Assembly: GCA_030295235.1 (NCBI GenBank)
Contig: AP026136.1
Span: forward strand, 1,116,001 to 1,180,000
Direction: 5' to 3'
Origin: Fistulifera solaris
Taxonomy: Eukaryota
DNA: 64,000 bases
Positions 44,218-53,515 of this stretch are shown here, piece by piece (the first letter of the stretch is position 1; each line of letters begins with the position of its first letter). Below the pieces are notes generated by a model. It saw nothing but the letters and a program-made list of their open reading frames with translations. It had not been told where the DNA came from and searched no databases. A program made the position numbers and the translations under genes.

Positions 44218-45447
44218 CTATTGACTTTCGGCTTCGACTGCCTTGTGCGGGCCATCGTATACTGAGAAATCAGTGTATCCTTTGGCTCCAGTTGGCGCAT
44301 ACCAGGTCTCGTAAGCGGCCTCGGGCTCCAAAGGCCAATTGTGCGTGAAACGCTCCACGAGGTCAGGGTTCGAAATGTACAAGCGACCAAACGCGCAGAG
44401 ATCCGCAGCACCCGAGCGGACCATTCCCTCGGCCGTGTCTTTGTTCAAACCGACGTTGCACATAATGGGGCCGTCGAATACTTTACGAAAGTCGGCGACA
44501 GTGACGACCTTGCATTTGTTGTGGAATCCAAAACCGAGTCCATCCATGACGTGCAAGTAGGCCGGCTTGTATTCGTTCATGACCTTGGCGAAATAGGGGA
44601 ACGCAACATCGTTGTCTTCACTGCCCATGTCTCCAAAGACACCATTGGGCGAAAAGCGGAAACCAATACGGTTGGCTGCGTACGCACCACTTTCCACAAT
44701 GGCCTCGAAGATTTCCTTCAAGATACGAATTCGGTTGTCAAGACTGCCTCCATAGTTGTCCGTGCGTTTGTTCGTGGAAGACTGAAGGAACGTATCAATA
44801 AGGTAACCATTGGCCGCATGAATCTCAATTCCGTCGAAACCGGCTTCTTTCGCGAGCTTGGCGGCATTGACGTAGTCGGCAATCGTCGCCTTGATCTCGT
44901 CGACGGTCAACTCCGAAGGGACTTCGGCTTCCGCATCTTCACCATTAATGGTTCGTACCTTGACACCAGACATGGCGATAGGCGAGGGAGCGAAAGTCTT
45001 GTTGGTAGACGGATGGTGAGAAGAATGTGACTGACGACCCATATGCCAAAATTGCATAAAGATGATTCCTTCCTTCGCATGAACGGCGTCAACTACCTTC
45101 TTCCATCCTTCCACATTCTCCGGAAAACGAATGTGGGGGCGTTGCGCCAGCCACAACCGGCCTCCGAAATGGCCGTAGCTTCGGTGATGAGCAAACCGCC
45201 CGAAGCCCGCTGGGTGTAGTATTCGACCATGAGATCATTGGGAGTAGTGCACACAACGTCAAAAGGATCCTCGGTAGGAGTGCATCTGCAAGATTCACAA
45301 GATCACGAGCGAGTTAGTTTGATGCAGGCTCCTTCACATAATGGAAACGACTATTCACTTGACCTACCGACCACGAGTCAAAGGAGCAAGAACAACACGG
45401 TTCTTGAGCTCAAGATCTCCGATAGTGAATTTGGATAGAAGCTGCAT
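44218..45447 (-). CDS. Old yellow enzyme family NADH:flavin oxidoreductase; 2 exons, one apparent indel
   Basis: NRVVLAPLTRGR, EIHAANGYL, NKRTDNYGGS and FGRLYISNPDL; intron 45286-45367; frame break at G-run 45135-45139. Confidence 0.95.
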
Positions 45448-46435
45448 GTCGCAAAGTTCTTTTATTAATATTAGAAAAGAAGAAACGAGAATTAATAGGC
45501 AATTGAGTGGTCGATAGAATTTATGTTTCGTGTGATGAGTGATGACGATGATGATGTGGCTGCGATCGGAATGACATACTTCGCCGATCGCCGCCACTCT
45601 GTTCTTTTTTCTTCGAATTTGTTCCGATTTTCCGTCGTAATTCGAAAACGTTCAATTTTGTTCATGGTGACGATGCTGTCGGAACGGTATACAAGATGAA
45701 GACTGAGTTCTTGTCACGTGTCATCAATGGTCGTTTGATTAATTTACATTGATCACGTTGTGTCTCTCGCATTCGCAGCTTTTTCATCCTAGCCTCTTAA
45801 TGCAGCAAAAATTACCAATGTTCTTTTGGAATGCGTTATCAATCATTTTCGTCGAAACTCTTCTTGTATTCTGCAATTCAGGACGCATTATAGAAGAAAT
45901 TTTTGGTTTTACGAAGTCACGACTGGTTCTAGCTACAAGTCATGGAAGATTTTCCATTTACGTAGAGGCTGCCGAGCTGAAGTTGTATTTTTAGCAAAGA
46001 TGTGCTTTATACATAACTCTCGGAAGGATTACATGATGTAACCACAATACACAGGTCCTCTGGTCTCAAAGTGTTGACGACCGATAGTATCATTAGTATG
46101 CAGACTTCAGTTTCTAGTGCTTATGAGTAGGTCTATTTATAACCTCAGTCTGATGGAAACAGTTGAAAGCTTCATGCGATTATGTTGTAATTTCACCGAA
46201 GACATGTTTTCAGAGTCAGCACTCACTTCTTCTCATGAAGTTAATCAGATCACGTCCTAATCGTGCTGGCACCTGTCGGAATTGTTTTATCTTGCTTATT
46301 CTAATTTCGACACATGTGGTCGAGTCTTTCCGGGGGGTCAATTCAAGTTACTTAGAGGTTCTTGCGTAACAAGTCCAGCTTTCCAGTTCTCACGCGTGTG
46401 CATTACTTTCACTAACATACTTTTCTGCATTGCAG

Positions 46436-46999
46436 CTAGAACCAGTTCGTGTATTCCATACTCCTCGCTGTCAGCACGGATGGGCTGACAGTCTCGGATC
46501 TCTTTTTTCTGGAAGTAGCGTTTGTCCTGCTGTTTAATTTCGTGCTCTTCATTGATAGTTGCCGAGAGTTTTGAATGCACAATACTTCCTCCTCAAAGTC
46601 TTCCAGGAACGACTTTGAGCGATTGTCACCCGTGATCGATGCTCTCTCCAAAGCGGAAAGTCGACGGACTTGCTTGTCCGCAGCGGTAAGCTTTTCGTAG
46701 GTGTCGATGTCGAAAGTCTGTGAATTATTTTTGTTCCAGTCCAACTGAAGAGGCAAGCCACCACTCACGGACGGGTTGTCACCGCAAATGAGATCGTGGT
46801 GATGAACCTTTACTGTGGAAAAAGATATGCGGGACGATCGAGTATTTCTTCGACTGGTGTTCGTTGTGCTGCTCGAGTCAGATGAGTTTCTACGCAACTG
46901 GATGGCGGATAGTGACGCCGTTAAAGGCTGAATTGACTCGCCGCTGTCAGTCATTTGATGGTAATTCATCGCTGTTAAATTGTAAGAAAATGGTTTCAC
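46436..46999 (-). CDS. Hypothetical protein of a diatom-type family
   Basis: ISFSTVKV...GDNPSVSGGLPLQLDW...DIDTYE motif. Boundaries uncertain. Confidence 0.65.
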   Translation of the reverse strand: MKPFSYNLTAMNYHQMTDSGESIQPLTASLSAIQLRRNSSDSSSTTNTSRRNTRSSRISFSTVKVHHHDLICGDNPSVSGGLPLQLDWNKNNSQTFDIDTYEKLTAADKQVRRLSALERASITGDNRSKSFLEDFEEEVLCIQNSRQLSMKSTKLNSRTNATSRKKRSETVSPSVLTARSMEYTNWF

Positions 47000-47084: not shown

Positions 47085-47220
47085 GATTATTTTGTTTTTT
47101 CCATTTCTCTCCACTCTCCACTTATCGAAGTTCAACCAGAAAGAACACAACTGGTTCCATTATTTTGCATTTTCCATTTCTTTCCACTTAATCGAAGTTC
47201 AACCAAAAGAATACAACTGG
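47085..47220 (+). repeat. Tandem ~70-bp duplication
   Basis: ATTATTTTG...TTTTCCATTTCT.TCCACT...ATCGAAGTTCAACCA.AAAGAA.ACAACTGG occurs twice (~47085-47153, ~47159-47220). Confidence 0.9.
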
Positions 47221-47763: not shown

Positions 47764-49984
47764 ATGACCGAGCCGAATCCCAAGCGACCCAAAACAACGT
47801 CTCAGTCGTCACTATCGTCTTTCTTTACGATAAAATCAACCGTACAAAAGGAGACACAAGCAGACGACAATGACGTATCTTCGTTTCAAAAAATAGATAC
47901 ATCGTCCAATGAACCCATTATCCCACGGACTGTCCCTGCCTCGTTAAAGGCAACATGGAACGTTTATCAGAATTCTTGTATCTACCGAAAAGTGAGAGGA
48001 GAGGTGACTGAGAGAACCAAAGTAGCTGCGTTTGATTTAGATGGTACTCTGTTGACGTGGCGAATTGAAGGCTGGCCGAGTAAGTTCGAACACTACGAAC
48101 TTTGGAATGCTAATGTCATTGACAAGCTTCGTCGATTGTATGATGAAGAAGATTATCGGCTGGTTGTGTTCAGTAATCAAGGATTGATACGACAAGCTTT
48201 CACGGGTGTAAAAGCGACATTTGTCAAGTCGTTACTCGAGTGGTTCGCGAACCTGCTCGATCGTCCTCTCTCCGTGGTCTTGTCGACAAGCAAAAGAACG
48301 GATTCCATAAGCCTTCTCACAAGATGTGGAATGTTGCGGAACAGTGCTGTTTTGGTGGACGAACTATGGATGTTTCTTCCAGTTTCTTCGTCGGGGACAG
48401 TATTGGAGGCGACGATGATCCACAAGGAGGAGTGGACATCGGCTTTGCTCGTGCAGTCGGAGAACACAGAAATGCGAGCTTACGCTTCTACAGTCCGACT
48501 GAATTCTTCGGACCGAGTTCGAAGCATATACGCGACAAAGGGAAGGTTGCATTGACGTACGAGATGCCACCAGATGCAGTGCTTAAGGCGAGGGCTGCAC
48601 TTGTGAGTGGCTATCTAGAAGGGCCGATTATGCTTATTCTATGTGGAGCACAAGGCTCTGGCAAAAGTACATTTTGTGACAAGTTGCTTGGGAAGAATGA
48701 TGCATGGGTCCATCTATCACAAGACACCATCAACAATGGGAAACCGGGAAAACGAGAAATGGTAGAAGAAGAAGCCGAGAAAGGACTTCGTGAAGGACGT
48801 TGTGTTGTTGTGGATCGCATGCATCTGGATGAGGCACAGCGCTCGGTGTTCGTAAACATTGCGAAGCAAGTGGATGTACCGGTTCATGCTTTGGTCCTAT
48901 CAACTTCAACGAGGATCCTAGCGTCACGAATAAAACTCAGATCAAATCATCCTGCCGGTGTTGAGGGCGAAAAGGGAGTTAAAGTTGCGATGATATCAGC
49001 ATCCAAAATGGTTTTACCGACGTATGCGGAAGGCTTCGCATTGATTAGCATTACGGCGACAGAGCAAGGTGTAGATCGATTTGTTGACCAATACAGCAAA
49101 CTTTCATCGGCAAAACCGAATACCACTACAATACTGAAACAGATTGACCTTCAGCAAATGAATATCCCATCCGTTATTTTAGGAACGATGAAATTGGGTA
49201 AGAAAACGGCTGCGGACATTGTATCGAAGGCTAAGTAATAGGGATTCGCAGGCGTTGATACTGCGCCAACTTACAACAACGAGATAGAGGTTGGTCGAGG
49301 AATGGATGATGATATGTTTTGTGTGGTCAAAGTGCCTAAAAGCGCATTGACCGCTGAGGATGTGAAAAAGAGCTAACCACGAGTCTTTCAAACTTGGGGC
49401 GAAAGCAAGGCGACCTTCTTTTACTGCACTGGCCATCAAACCTTGAAACGTTAATATCTGTGTGGCAAGGCATGGAGCTTTGTGTCAAAGAAGGACTTGT
49501 CAAAACCCTTGGTGTCTGCAACTTCAGTGCTAGGGCGTTGGCAGGACTGCTACCTTTATGCTCGATTACTCCTTACGTCAACCAAGTAGAGCGCCATCCT
49601 TTACTTCCACAATGGGACCTTGTCGATTTTTGTGCACAGAACGACATTTTGCTGCAGGCTCACACACCCCTGGGTCAAGGTAAAAGTGAGCTCTGGGAAG
49701 AACCAAGTTTGCAACAAGTGGTGGCATCGACGGGTCTCTCGCCTGCAAAGGTTTTGCTTCTCTGGAATCTTCAACAAGGGGTAGCCGTGGTGCCAAAATG
49801 TAGCTCAGAAGAACATTTGGTTGATGTTATGGAACTTTTCAAATCAGCGGCGTTCAGCGAGGCTGTATTACTCGCTGACGATTTGATGGAGTTGAACGGC
49901 ATTACTCGTACTTGCAGGTTTGTTGCCCCGCCGTTTATGTTCGGTTCTGCGAGTTACTGCTGGGCGTCGAAAGCGAACAAGTAA
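47764..49984 (+). CDS. PNKP-like DNA 3'-phosphatase + P-loop kinase + aldo-keto reductase, apparently one fused gene with three breaks
   Basis: AAFDLDGTL, VFSNQG and FFVGD (HAD phosphatase); GAQGSGKST (P-loop); then LGT...GVDTAPTYNNE, DLLLLHWP, LGVCNF and NQVERHP (AKR). Breaks at 48292-5, 49236-41 and 49365-9. Confidence 0.85.
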
Positions 49985-51900: not shown

Positions 51901-53515
51901 TTACGTGGCATATTCTTTGCAAAACGATTCGTAGTGCTCTTTAATTTTCTCTACGCACCGTTGCATTTCTTCTTCTGGTGGCAGGAAAGTTGTTCGGAAG
52001 CCAAAGCGTCCATCACGTTGACCAAATCCAGATGCCGGAACAACACAGATTCCTGTGGACTTCAATAAGGATACGCAATAAAGAGCATCCGGTGTTGTAC
52101 CCCTTTCCTTCGCAACTCGAATAGCTCCGGGAGGCATTTCCACACTTGGAAAGCAGTACATGCTACCTTTGCCGGTCGACACGAAAAACCAGGAATGGAA
52201 TCTAATCCTTGACTCACAATTGTGGAGCGACGCTTTAACGAATCATAAATAGCTTTCTTTTCTACCTCGTGGCTTTCGTAAGATACTTCTCCTGGCGAAG
52301 GACCTCGGACCATCAAACTCGTCATAATTTGTCCCGCGACGGTTGCACAGAGAGAAGCCGAGGCCATTTTGTAGAGTTCATCTTGGACCTTCTCATCGAT
52401 TCCTACCAACTCCATGTAACCACCGCGCCTTCCGCATTCTCCGAAAACGCCTTTCGAAACGGAATGGAACGAAATGAGTTCGATTTGATCCAATAGCCCG
52501 CATTCATATGCCGCTCGCTTAGCACTGACAAATTCTCCTTCGTAGACATTCTCTTGGTATACTTCGTCCGCCAACAAAACCAGATTGTGTTTGACACAAA
52601 AGCGAACAATATCGTGCAGGTTCTCTCGACTTAGTACTTGACCCGTGGGATTCCCCGGATTAATGAGAACGAACGAGTTTACCTCGATGCCCTCTTCCTG
52701 AGCTGTAGCTAAGGCACGCTCGAGTTCTTCCAGATTGAGCGCCCAATCCTTTTCTTCGTTCATATAATATCCCACCCGATGACCGTTCAGTAAATCAATT
52801 GTCGCCGAATAAATAGGATACTGAGGAGTCGGGATCATAACACCGGTACGTTCATTGGCAATTAATGCGGTCAAGACCATGTTGATGGCATTCGACGCGC
52901 CGTTGGACAAGAAAATAGCTTCCGGATCCGAAGGAATGCCTCCATCTCTCGCGGCAATGAAATCCGCCACATCCTGTCGAAACGCACGTACGCCCTTGGA
53001 ATGTGTGTAAGCTCCCGATCCGTGTCCCGACAAGGCGTGGTTTTTGATTTCACGTGCGCGATCCACCGCATCTTGCGGAAAGAGCTTGAGCACATCGGGA
53101 TGATCAATTCCGACTTCGTCCGGGAGGTCCACCAACGCCATGACCTGCCTGGGCCATTTGAGAGGCATCTGTCCGATGGATTGAGGATTGCCAATGTTTG
53201 TGTAAACAATGTGGTCAAACGGATATTGTTGAGGATTGGCGGCGAGTTGATCGGCGATCTTATCGGCTTCAATCACGACGGGTCCTCGCACGGCGTATTC
53301 CATTTGCGCAGTGACTGCGACATGCTATCTATTGTGAGACGTTTCTTGTGTTCATAAACTGCATAGAAATAGCACAAGTCAGAATGCATTCGCGAAAAAA
53401 GAACGCAACAAAATTGACGACGATGACCAAATGGGAACTTACAGGATGTTTCAGCAGCAATTGTTTGCGGTGTCGGGGCGACCGATGCGATACTACATCT
53501 CATCCTCATCGTCAT
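51901..53515 (-). CDS. Alanine aminotransferase / glutamate:glyoxylate aminotransferase family; 2 exons, two apparent indels
   Basis: MEYAVRG, NIGNPQ, INPGNPTG, ADEVYQ, SFHSVSKG..GECGRRGGY and FRTTFLP; intron 53359-53442; breaks ~53303-5 and ~52168-70. Confidence 0.95.

What the first reader, a model, noticed from the sequence alone, without database searches (positions are those of the whole stretch)
47764..49984. PCNA-tethered DNA end-healing enzyme apparently fused to an aldo-keto reductase
Seen: NLS-like PKRPK, canonical PIP box QSSLSSFF (47803-47826), HAD 3'-phosphatase, P-loop kinase, then the AKR N-terminus (IPSVILGT) inside the same ORF with no intergenic gap. Known: PNKP heals 3'-P/5'-OH ends and AKRs reduce aldehydes. 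I do not know this combination as a characterised architecture. Inference: it could reduce aldehydic 3'-blocks or abasic sites, or detoxify reactive aldehydes at repair sites.
Basis: partly seen in the sequence, partly recalled or inferred. Interest (0 to 1): 0.7.

Follow-up and report, generated by a model that had tools for sequence, protein, structure and literature searches.

The report
Diatom DNA-end healer with aldehyde reductase
Diatoms join an aldehyde-reducing enzyme onto their DNA-break-cleaning enzyme, which may let them repair oxidised DNA ends directly (untested), although the copy in this window has lost its reductase part to a premature stop.

Summary
The fusion is real, but it is not one ORF here. 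Two frame breaks are assembly errors (short-read contigs add an A). TAA-TAG at 49236-49241 is real, so this allele gives a 491-aa phosphatase-kinase with a 26-residue reductase stub. The homeolog on C11 reads through as 740 aa. PNK3P-kinase-AKR occurs in 110 of 120 listed homologues, named ones being diatoms. Catalytic residues are nearly invariant; a PIP box occurs in 65 of 82 N-tails, 0.09 expected. It is the only PNK3P locus pair found in this genome. The kinase is not the canonical PNKP kinase: it groups with aprataxin- and TDP1-linked kinases. Bacteria carry a reverse-order AKR-kinase-HAD fusion built from a different AKR (one clade rejected, p=0.0135). Best reading (inferred, 0.38): the AKR reduces the nucleoside 5'-aldehyde of C5'-oxidation breaks to 5'-OH, the kinase phosphorylates it and the HAD removes the 3'-phosphate. 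The reviews read list no direct repair of that end. The scan had already noted the homeolog and the bacterial form. No activity was tested.

The parts
47764..49984 (+). No intron needed: PIP-HAD-kinase-AKR gene of 740 codons; this allele yields 491 aa because of a premature stop
47779..47793 (+). NLS-like basic motif PKRPK
   Evidence: K[KR]x[KR] before the PIP in 51 of 65 vs 7.0 shuffled
47803..47826 (+). PIP box QSSLSSFF in a low-confidence (likely disordered) tail
   Evidence: 65 of 82 vs 0.09 shuffled; pLDDT about 45 for residues 1-40
48016..48527 (+). HAD 3'-phosphatase (PNK3P): DLDGT at 48034, FSNQ, HKP, GDS...D
   Evidence: Pfam; D91 85/89, D93 79/89, T95, K183, D225 89/89; aligns to mouse PNKP 3ZVL
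48288..48292 (+). A-run short by one base: assembly error
   Evidence: table 4 (X1, X3); P0002 reads through
48624..49097 (+). P-loop 5'-OH polynucleotide kinase of the aprataxin-linked / Mucorales-KIN type: GAQGSGKST at 48645, SQD321, lid R389 and R393
   Evidence: K301, D321, R389, R393 89/89
49158..49981 (+). Aldo-keto reductase domain (AKR5-like); tetrad D499 (49257), Y504, K523, H556 intact in sequence but behind the stop in this allele
   Evidence: tetrad 89/89
49236..49241 (+). Premature TAA TAG (codons 492-493); the homeolog has TCG TTG
   Evidence: P0002 ends here
49360..49368 (+). A-run short by one base: assembly error
   Evidence: table 4 (X1, X2, X4)

Best explanation
A nuclear, probably PCNA-tethered end-healing enzyme that serves as the diatom PNKP and carries a third active site. 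Shown: three intact, conserved catalytic domains in one chain across diatoms; the C11 copy here is whole, the window copy (C12) is cut after the kinase. Inferred from family knowledge: the HAD removes 3'-phosphates and the kinase phosphorylates 5'-OH ends. Inferred and untested: the AKR reduces, with NAD(P)H, the nucleoside 5'-aldehyde left by C5' oxidation of deoxyribose back to a 5'-OH. The adjoining kinase then phosphorylates it while the HAD clears the 3'-phosphate on the other side, giving a ligatable nick without excision.
For: Architecture: 110 of 120 listed homologues HAD-kinase-AKR, 8 kinase-AKR fragments, 2 HAD-kinase. The fused AKRs form one clade (100/99). 14 of 39 shorter hits keep kinase remnants and most others start at or inside the AKR. 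Only PNK3P locus pair found in the genome. PIP and basic motif conserved; no FHA in P0001's Pfam list; no XRCC1_N hit in the genome. Slot argument: this kinase clade is also fused to other end-deblocking modules: aprataxin-type HIT in 14 of 17 kinase-only hits scanned, Macro in 4, TDP1 in P0120 and P0199. Convergence: bacterial AKR-kinase-HAD proteins use an AKR13-like reductase against AKR5-like here, in reverse order; AU test rejects one AKR clade (p=0.0135). In bacterial Atlas clusters AKR goes with AAA_33 in 97-100% of members but PNK3P in only 19-42%, and the HAD of L050/L051 lacks DxD, so the constant partner is the 5'-kinase. Lesion: neocarzinostatin/calicheamicin break ends bear 5'-aldehyde and 3'-phosphate, and resolution is 'essentially unknown' (PMC3825254, passages); 5'-aldehyde is abundant, lasts days, and only long-patch BER is listed (PMC12564780 section 2.5). 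Basic residues are conserved in loops after the AKR's first and third strands (K/R480 85/86, K/R526 86/89); at 526-527 they appear in 1 of 9 related stand-alone AKRs (by eye).
Against: No activity data. The AKR's closest solved relatives reduce small carbonyls. The bacterial fusions have no conserved ligase or repair neighbour: no partner recurs in more than 6 of 80 loci, and 13 scanned partner representatives were regulators, transporters, other enzymes or unassigned. The AU test did not reject a single origin of the fused kinases (p=0.0595), and the bacterial kinase branch is long (2.41). The closest characterised kinase is a tRNA-splicing RNA/DNA kinase. This allele has lost the AKR, and some representatives lack it (P0162, P0167, P0187, P0189, P0190; not checked on DNA). 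Whether a nick-internal 5'-aldehyde, largely hydrated in water (own knowledge), can enter an AKR pocket is unknown.
Confidence: 0.38

Rival explanations
1. The AKR is a tethered scavenger of free reactive aldehydes (methylglyoxal, base propenals, furfural, lipid-derived alkenals) at replication and repair sites and does not act on DNA.
For: Closest structures and families are DkgA/YvgN-type small-carbonyl reductases. The PIP box would supply localisation without DNA specificity. No conserved repair neighbours in bacteria.
Against: The genome has 48 AKR-family matches, and a localisation tag would not need a kinase partner. Two different AKR subfamilies are fused specifically to a polynucleotide kinase, and bacteria have no nucleus to target.
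Confidence: 0.25
2. One reading: the AKR reduces 3'-alpha,beta-unsaturated aldehyde ends, 5'-dRP or abasic sites, preventing cross-links before other enzymes remove them.
For: 3'-PUA forms DNA-protein cross-links and thiol adducts (PMC12564780 passages). AKRs reduce hydroxy-alkenals (own knowledge). TDP1, a 3'-deblocker, fills the same slot in P0120 and P0199.
Against: The reduced 3' remnant is still a block and is a substrate for neither the HAD nor the kinase (own knowledge). The bacterial forms keep the 5'-kinase and often lose HAD catalytic residues.
Confidence: 0.17
3. An RNA end-healing enzyme (tRNA splicing or oxidised-RNA repair), with the AKR acting on oxidised RNA ends.
For: Best PDB kinase matches are 9DRZ (E 1.2e-15) and Rhizopus KIN 9D8A (E 3.1e-12) against 0.16 for mouse PNKP. 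Mucorales KIN phosphorylates RNA and DNA and complements tRNA splicing (PMC11571804). No RtcB hit in this genome, control 10 of 14.
Against: Conserved PIP box; DNA-type PNK3P phosphatase. The genome has separate stand-alone kinases of this type on C9 and C10. Trl1 homologues are reported in diatoms (PMC4090602, one passage).
Confidence: 0.1
4. The fusions are functionally incidental or serve small-metabolite (sugar-phosphate or nucleoside) salvage.
For: One homeolog lost the AKR. The bacterial HAD has a CPH..CxC motif of the GmhB/HisB kind (seen; label recalled).
Against: Tetrad invariant in 89 of 89 and the fusion kept across pennate and centric diatoms by source names; dN/dS about 0.2 between alleles in the AKR.
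Confidence: 0.1

Closest known systems
Mammalian PNKP (PDB 3ZVL, 1YJ5, 3U7E; TIGR01663)
   Same: HAD 3'-phosphatase followed by a P-loop 5'-kinase, collinear over residues 80-426 (E 1.7e-19); DxDGT, NQ, KP, GD motifs kept
   Different: No FHA; PIP box instead; kinase from a different clade; C-terminal AKR; 96.9 bits vs cut-off 502.8
Mucorales stand-alone 5'-OH RNA/DNA kinase (RazKIN 9D8A, 9DRZ; PMC11571804)
   Same: Closest solved kinase; P-loop, catalytic QD aspartate, lid arginines, HP..V.G motif
   Different: Stand-alone, GTP-preferring, tRNA splicing; the G-loop serine lies beyond the aligned part and was not tested
Aprataxin proteins with an N-terminal kinase (AAA_33 +/- Macro + HIT + zf-C2HE) and PNK3P-kinase-TDP1 fusions
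   Same: Same kinase clade (95/91) coupled to an end-deblocking domain
   Different: The deblocking domain is a hydrolase; here the slot holds an oxidoreductase
AKR5-type reductases (2,5-DKG reductase A/DkgA, YvgN, mycobacterial 2WZM)
   Same: TIM barrel, D-Y-K-H tetrad, about 30% identity
   Different: Fused; KVPKR after the catalytic Lys; His (80 of 81) where these have the Arg of the PKS..R motif; own clade; below the DkgA cut-off
Uncharacterised bacterial AKR-kinase-HAD fusion (L050, L051, P0287 family; Atlas clusters in Myxococcota, Acidobacteriota)
   Same: AKR and polynucleotide-kinase-like domain in one chain, with a HAD
   Different: Reverse order, AKR13-like reductase, kinase placed with canonical PNKP, HAD lacking DxD in the members seen

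Membership tests
PNKP (bifunctional polynucleotide phosphatase/kinase) | HAD-IIIA 3'-phosphatase with DxDxT, S/T, K and distal D motifs | tested here: met
PNKP (bifunctional polynucleotide phosphatase/kinase) | C-terminal P-loop kinase with catalytic Asp | tested here: met
   GAQGSGKST, D321 89/89
PNKP (bifunctional polynucleotide phosphatase/kinase) | Kinase grouped with canonical PNKP kinases; TIGR01663 cut-off | tested here: not met
   Groups with aprataxin/TDP1-linked kinases; 96.9 vs 502.8 bits
PNKP (bifunctional polynucleotide phosphatase/kinase) | N-terminal FHA domain (animal form) | tested here: not met
   No FHA in Pfam results; PIP box instead
PNKP (bifunctional polynucleotide phosphatase/kinase) | 3'-phosphatase and 5'-kinase activity on DNA breaks | not testable with these tools
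   needs an assay
Aldo-keto reductase superfamily | TIM barrel with Asp-Tyr-Lys-His tetrad | tested here: met
   D499, Y504, K523, H556 89/89; Foldseek target TM about 0.72-0.89 to AKRs
Aldo-keto reductase superfamily | Arg of the cofactor loop that holds the NADPH 2'-phosphate (role recalled) | tested here: not met
   His in 80 of 81, aligned to Arg in 2WZM/1MZR. R276H shifts a yeast xylose reductase to NADH (PMC5655348 passages); equivalence of the positions is recalled, so cofactor use is open
DkgA/DkgB equivalogs | NCBIfam cut-off | tested here: not met
   133 vs 425 and 106 vs 327 bits
Mucorales-type tRNA-splicing kinase | Catalytic Asp and lid arginines | tested here: met
Mucorales-type tRNA-splicing kinase | G-loop serine, GTP preference | tested here: inconclusive
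   alignment to 9D8A ends at residue 121, before Ser146
PCNA-interacting (PIP-box) proteins | QxxLxxFF in a disordered tail, conserved | tested here: met
PCNA-interacting (PIP-box) proteins | Physical binding to PCNA | not tested
   no experiment or model made
Intact full-length fusion gene (this allele) | Open frame through the AKR | tested here: not met
   TAA TAG at 49236-49241; met by the C11 copy

The most novel reading that the evidence does not exclude
The AKR is a dedicated DNA 5'-aldehyde reductase, and AKR plus kinase plus phosphatase is an excision-free direct-reversal pathway for C5'-oxidation strand breaks that arose independently in diatoms (with some haptophyte-like relatives) and in soil bacteria.
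Probability: 0.33. Interest if true: 0.9.

Novelty: new variant of a known kind. Interest (0 to 1): 0.7.

Why it matters
C5' is described as the most oxidisable deoxyribose position, and its 5'-aldehyde end lasts days. The two reviews read give no dedicated enzyme for it, only strand displacement plus FEN1, or 'essentially unknown'. A one-chain reductase-kinase-phosphatase would be a new repair chemistry (redox reversal of a sugar lesion) that three oligonucleotide assays can test. It is also the only PNKP-like locus found in this diatom, with a PIP box where animals use FHA. The natural AKR-less allele beside an intact homeolog gives a ready-made comparison.

Tried and rejected
No RNA holder listed among public runs; runs X1 and X3 are only guessed to be RNA, so nothing is concluded on expression or on a transcript across the junction. 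An intron removing the stops: 13 in-frame GT..AG pairs exist, the best-looking being 49198-49251 (54 nt), which would delete 18 AKR residues; no such joint was seen in the contigs and none is needed by the homeolog; rejected. Faster decay of the AKR behind the stop: not shown (window-unique changes 28 of 247 vs 35 of 491, p=0.069; dN/dS 0.205 vs 0.159; conserved columns no worse than in the intact copies), so the stop looks recent. Complex prediction of the HAD-kinase part with the AKR part: no verdict. Cluster membership and source names for ten proteins could not be obtained, so the taxonomic range rests on names and Atlas taxa. Searches for the bacterial fusion that led nowhere: plasmids, genome contigs with the diatom profile (26 loci, none fused), five fetched stretches of which two were read, and phylum samples. 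PF09511 ligase search of the own genome was uninformative, control silent. Paper searches finding no description of the fusion: (listings and abstract starts only); addressed cofactor use and tRNA ligases. The library lacks most subscription papers, and no supplements were read; a domain-architecture table there could list it.

Full report
OBSERVATION. Short-read contigs add one A behind 48291 and one behind 49364 at full depth. One-base homopolymer losses relative to the homeolog also fall in two neighbouring genes. These two breaks are assembly errors. TAA TAG at 49236-49241 is different. P0002, a 491-aa model that its source labels Fistulifera solaris, matches the window and ends there, and the change tally of run X3 fits window-type letters over the stops (an inference from one possibly chimeric contig). 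P0002 and the runs may be the same strain as the window, so they are independent of the assembly, not of the organism.

SECOND COPY. The genome holds a copy on C11 at 89% identity, and the whole window is collinear with C11 at 79-90%: homeologous chromosomes. That copy reads KARSLGF through the stop position and gives 740 aa once its three A-run slips are allowed for; the two slips it shares with the window are read-supported, the third is inferred from P0001. P0001 is an intact 740-aa database relative. Behind the stop the window allele keeps the whole tetrad and shows no significant excess change, so the loss is recent. These two loci are the only PNK3P matches in the genome (a lower bound).

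FAMILY. Of 127 longer homologues 120 were listed: 110 are HAD-kinase-AKR, 8 kinase-AKR and 2 HAD-kinase (the window allele and a TDP1 fusion). Source names include pennate and centric diatoms and three MMETSP transcripts marked complete. Two Pavlovales AKR fragments and a small Haptophyta-labelled Atlas cluster suggest a wider range. In a 90-sequence alignment (90 of the 120, chosen as near full length) the HAD, kinase and AKR catalytic residues are invariant or nearly so. A PIP box sits in 65 of 82 N-tails (0.09 expected) with a basic motif before it in 51 of 65 (7.0 expected); the long-tailed centric forms tend to lack it. AlphaFold gives pLDDT 91, pTM 0.79 and a low-confidence first 40 residues; Foldseek returns AKRs and mouse PNKP. 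Against: a few representatives end after the kinase (P0162, P0167, P0187, P0189, P0190); three of them drift off at what looks like the AKR start, and none was checked on DNA.

THE KINASE IS NOT THE USUAL ONE. A profile of it scores aprataxin-linked kinases at about 120-140 bits and canonical PNKP kinases at about 20-60. 14 of 17 kinase-only hits scanned carry an aprataxin-type HIT domain. In a 63-row tree (my selection; P0247 and P0266 dropped for lack of the P-loop pattern) it falls with aprataxin-, TDP1- and UBA-linked kinases (95/91), apart from canonical PNKP. The closest solved kinases are 9DRZ and the Rhizopus enzyme 9D8A. The Mucorales enzymes phosphorylate 5'-OH RNA and DNA, prefer GTP and use the same QD aspartate (PMC11571804, parts 1-4 of 6 read). 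This supports real 5'-OH kinase activity and raises an RNA rival, since no RtcB was found. However, the genome has separate stand-alone kinases of this type, and the PIP box and PNK3P point to DNA.

CONVERGENCE. The Atlas showed bacterial clusters with AKR plus AAA_33 in 97-100% of members and PNK3P in 19-42%. Using a lead from earlier scan notes I found such genes in 2 of 81 genomes of the class of G002 (L050, L051) and their family (120 of 120 listed carry PF00248 and PF13671). Their order is AKR-kinase-HAD, the HAD lacks DxD in these members, and the AKR is nearest AKR13B2 and perakine reductase, against AKR5-type here. In a 42-row AKR tree (P0057 and P0205 dropped) the diatom clade nests among stand-alone AKRs away from the bacterial clade, and one clade is rejected (p=0.0135). 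For the kinases it is not rejected (p=0.0595), and the bacterial branch is long. The bacterial rows are close relatives of one lineage. Their neighbourhoods are not conserved and show no ligase among the 13 partners scanned.

MECHANISM. Shown: anatomy, conservation, allele status. Inferred from family knowledge: 3'-phosphatase, 5'-kinase, NAD(P)H carbonyl reductase, PCNA tether. Inferred: the substrate. The aldehyde end whose reduction makes a kinase substrate is the nucleoside 5'-aldehyde (own reasoning). Radical breaks of the neocarzinostatin kind carry 5'-aldehyde and 3'-phosphate ends, and the 2012 review calls resolution of the 5'-aldehyde essentially unknown (PMC3825254, passages). The 2025 review calls the lesion abundant and stable for days and lists only long-patch BER (PMC12564780, passages and section 2.5). 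That one lesion would use all three domains, and it explains why the AKR follows the kinase. Conserved basic loop residues fit an anionic substrate (weak). His685 replaces the cofactor-loop Arg in 80 of 81; a similar change favours NADH in a yeast reductase (PMC5655348, passages), but the equivalence is recalled and some stand-alone AKRs also have His nearby. Odds: 5'-aldehyde reversal 0.38, free-aldehyde scavenger 0.25, 3'-PUA or abasic 0.17, RNA 0.10, incidental or metabolic 0.10.

COMPARISON AND NOVELTY. It works like PNKP but fails membership on FHA, kinase clade and family cut-off. It is an AKR by fold and tetrad but not DkgA/B. No paper describing the fusion appeared in the searches (listings only, no supplements, mostly open-access library). 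Databases carry the domain set under automatic names. The scan had noted the homeolog and two bacterial cases; my 5'-aldehyde idea was written down before that look-up. Verdict: new variant of a known kind, interest 0.7; the window allele itself is a truncated copy.

Noticed in passing
window 44218-45500 (-) and 51901-53324 (-): Genes resembling an old yellow enzyme and an alanine aminotransferase (labels recalled from the translations) have frame breaks; one-base homopolymer losses against the homeolog at 44635, 52168 and 53303. Likely assembly errors.
   Followed up: partly
G000:C9:565709-567223 and C10:565415-565747: Stand-alone kinases of the Mucorales-KIN type, tandem on C9; no RtcB hit in the genome. 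Candidates for the diatom RNA 5'-kinase.
   Followed up: partly
P0120, P0199: PNK3P-kinase-TDP1 fusions using the same kinase clade.
   Followed up: partly
P0183, P0200, P0203: Relatives with an N-terminal WWE or NADAR domain before the HAD, linking the family to ADP-ribose signals.
   Followed up: no
L017-L039 (most Solirubrobacteraceae and Actinomycetes loci): A small AAA_33 kinase gene lies tail-to-tail with an AKR gene of another subfamily; may be plain inheritance.
   Followed up: no
P0001 vs L002: P0001 matches L002 at 299 of 300 residues in the N-terminal half but only 89-93% in kinase and AKR, hinting at a recombinant or third allele.
   Followed up: no
window 47089-47216: A 64-base stretch absent from the homeolog, looking like a local tandem duplication upstream of the gene.
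   Followed up: no
window 46436-46999 (-): Divergently oriented ORF of about 177 aa kept in both homeologs, no Pfam match.
   Followed up: no
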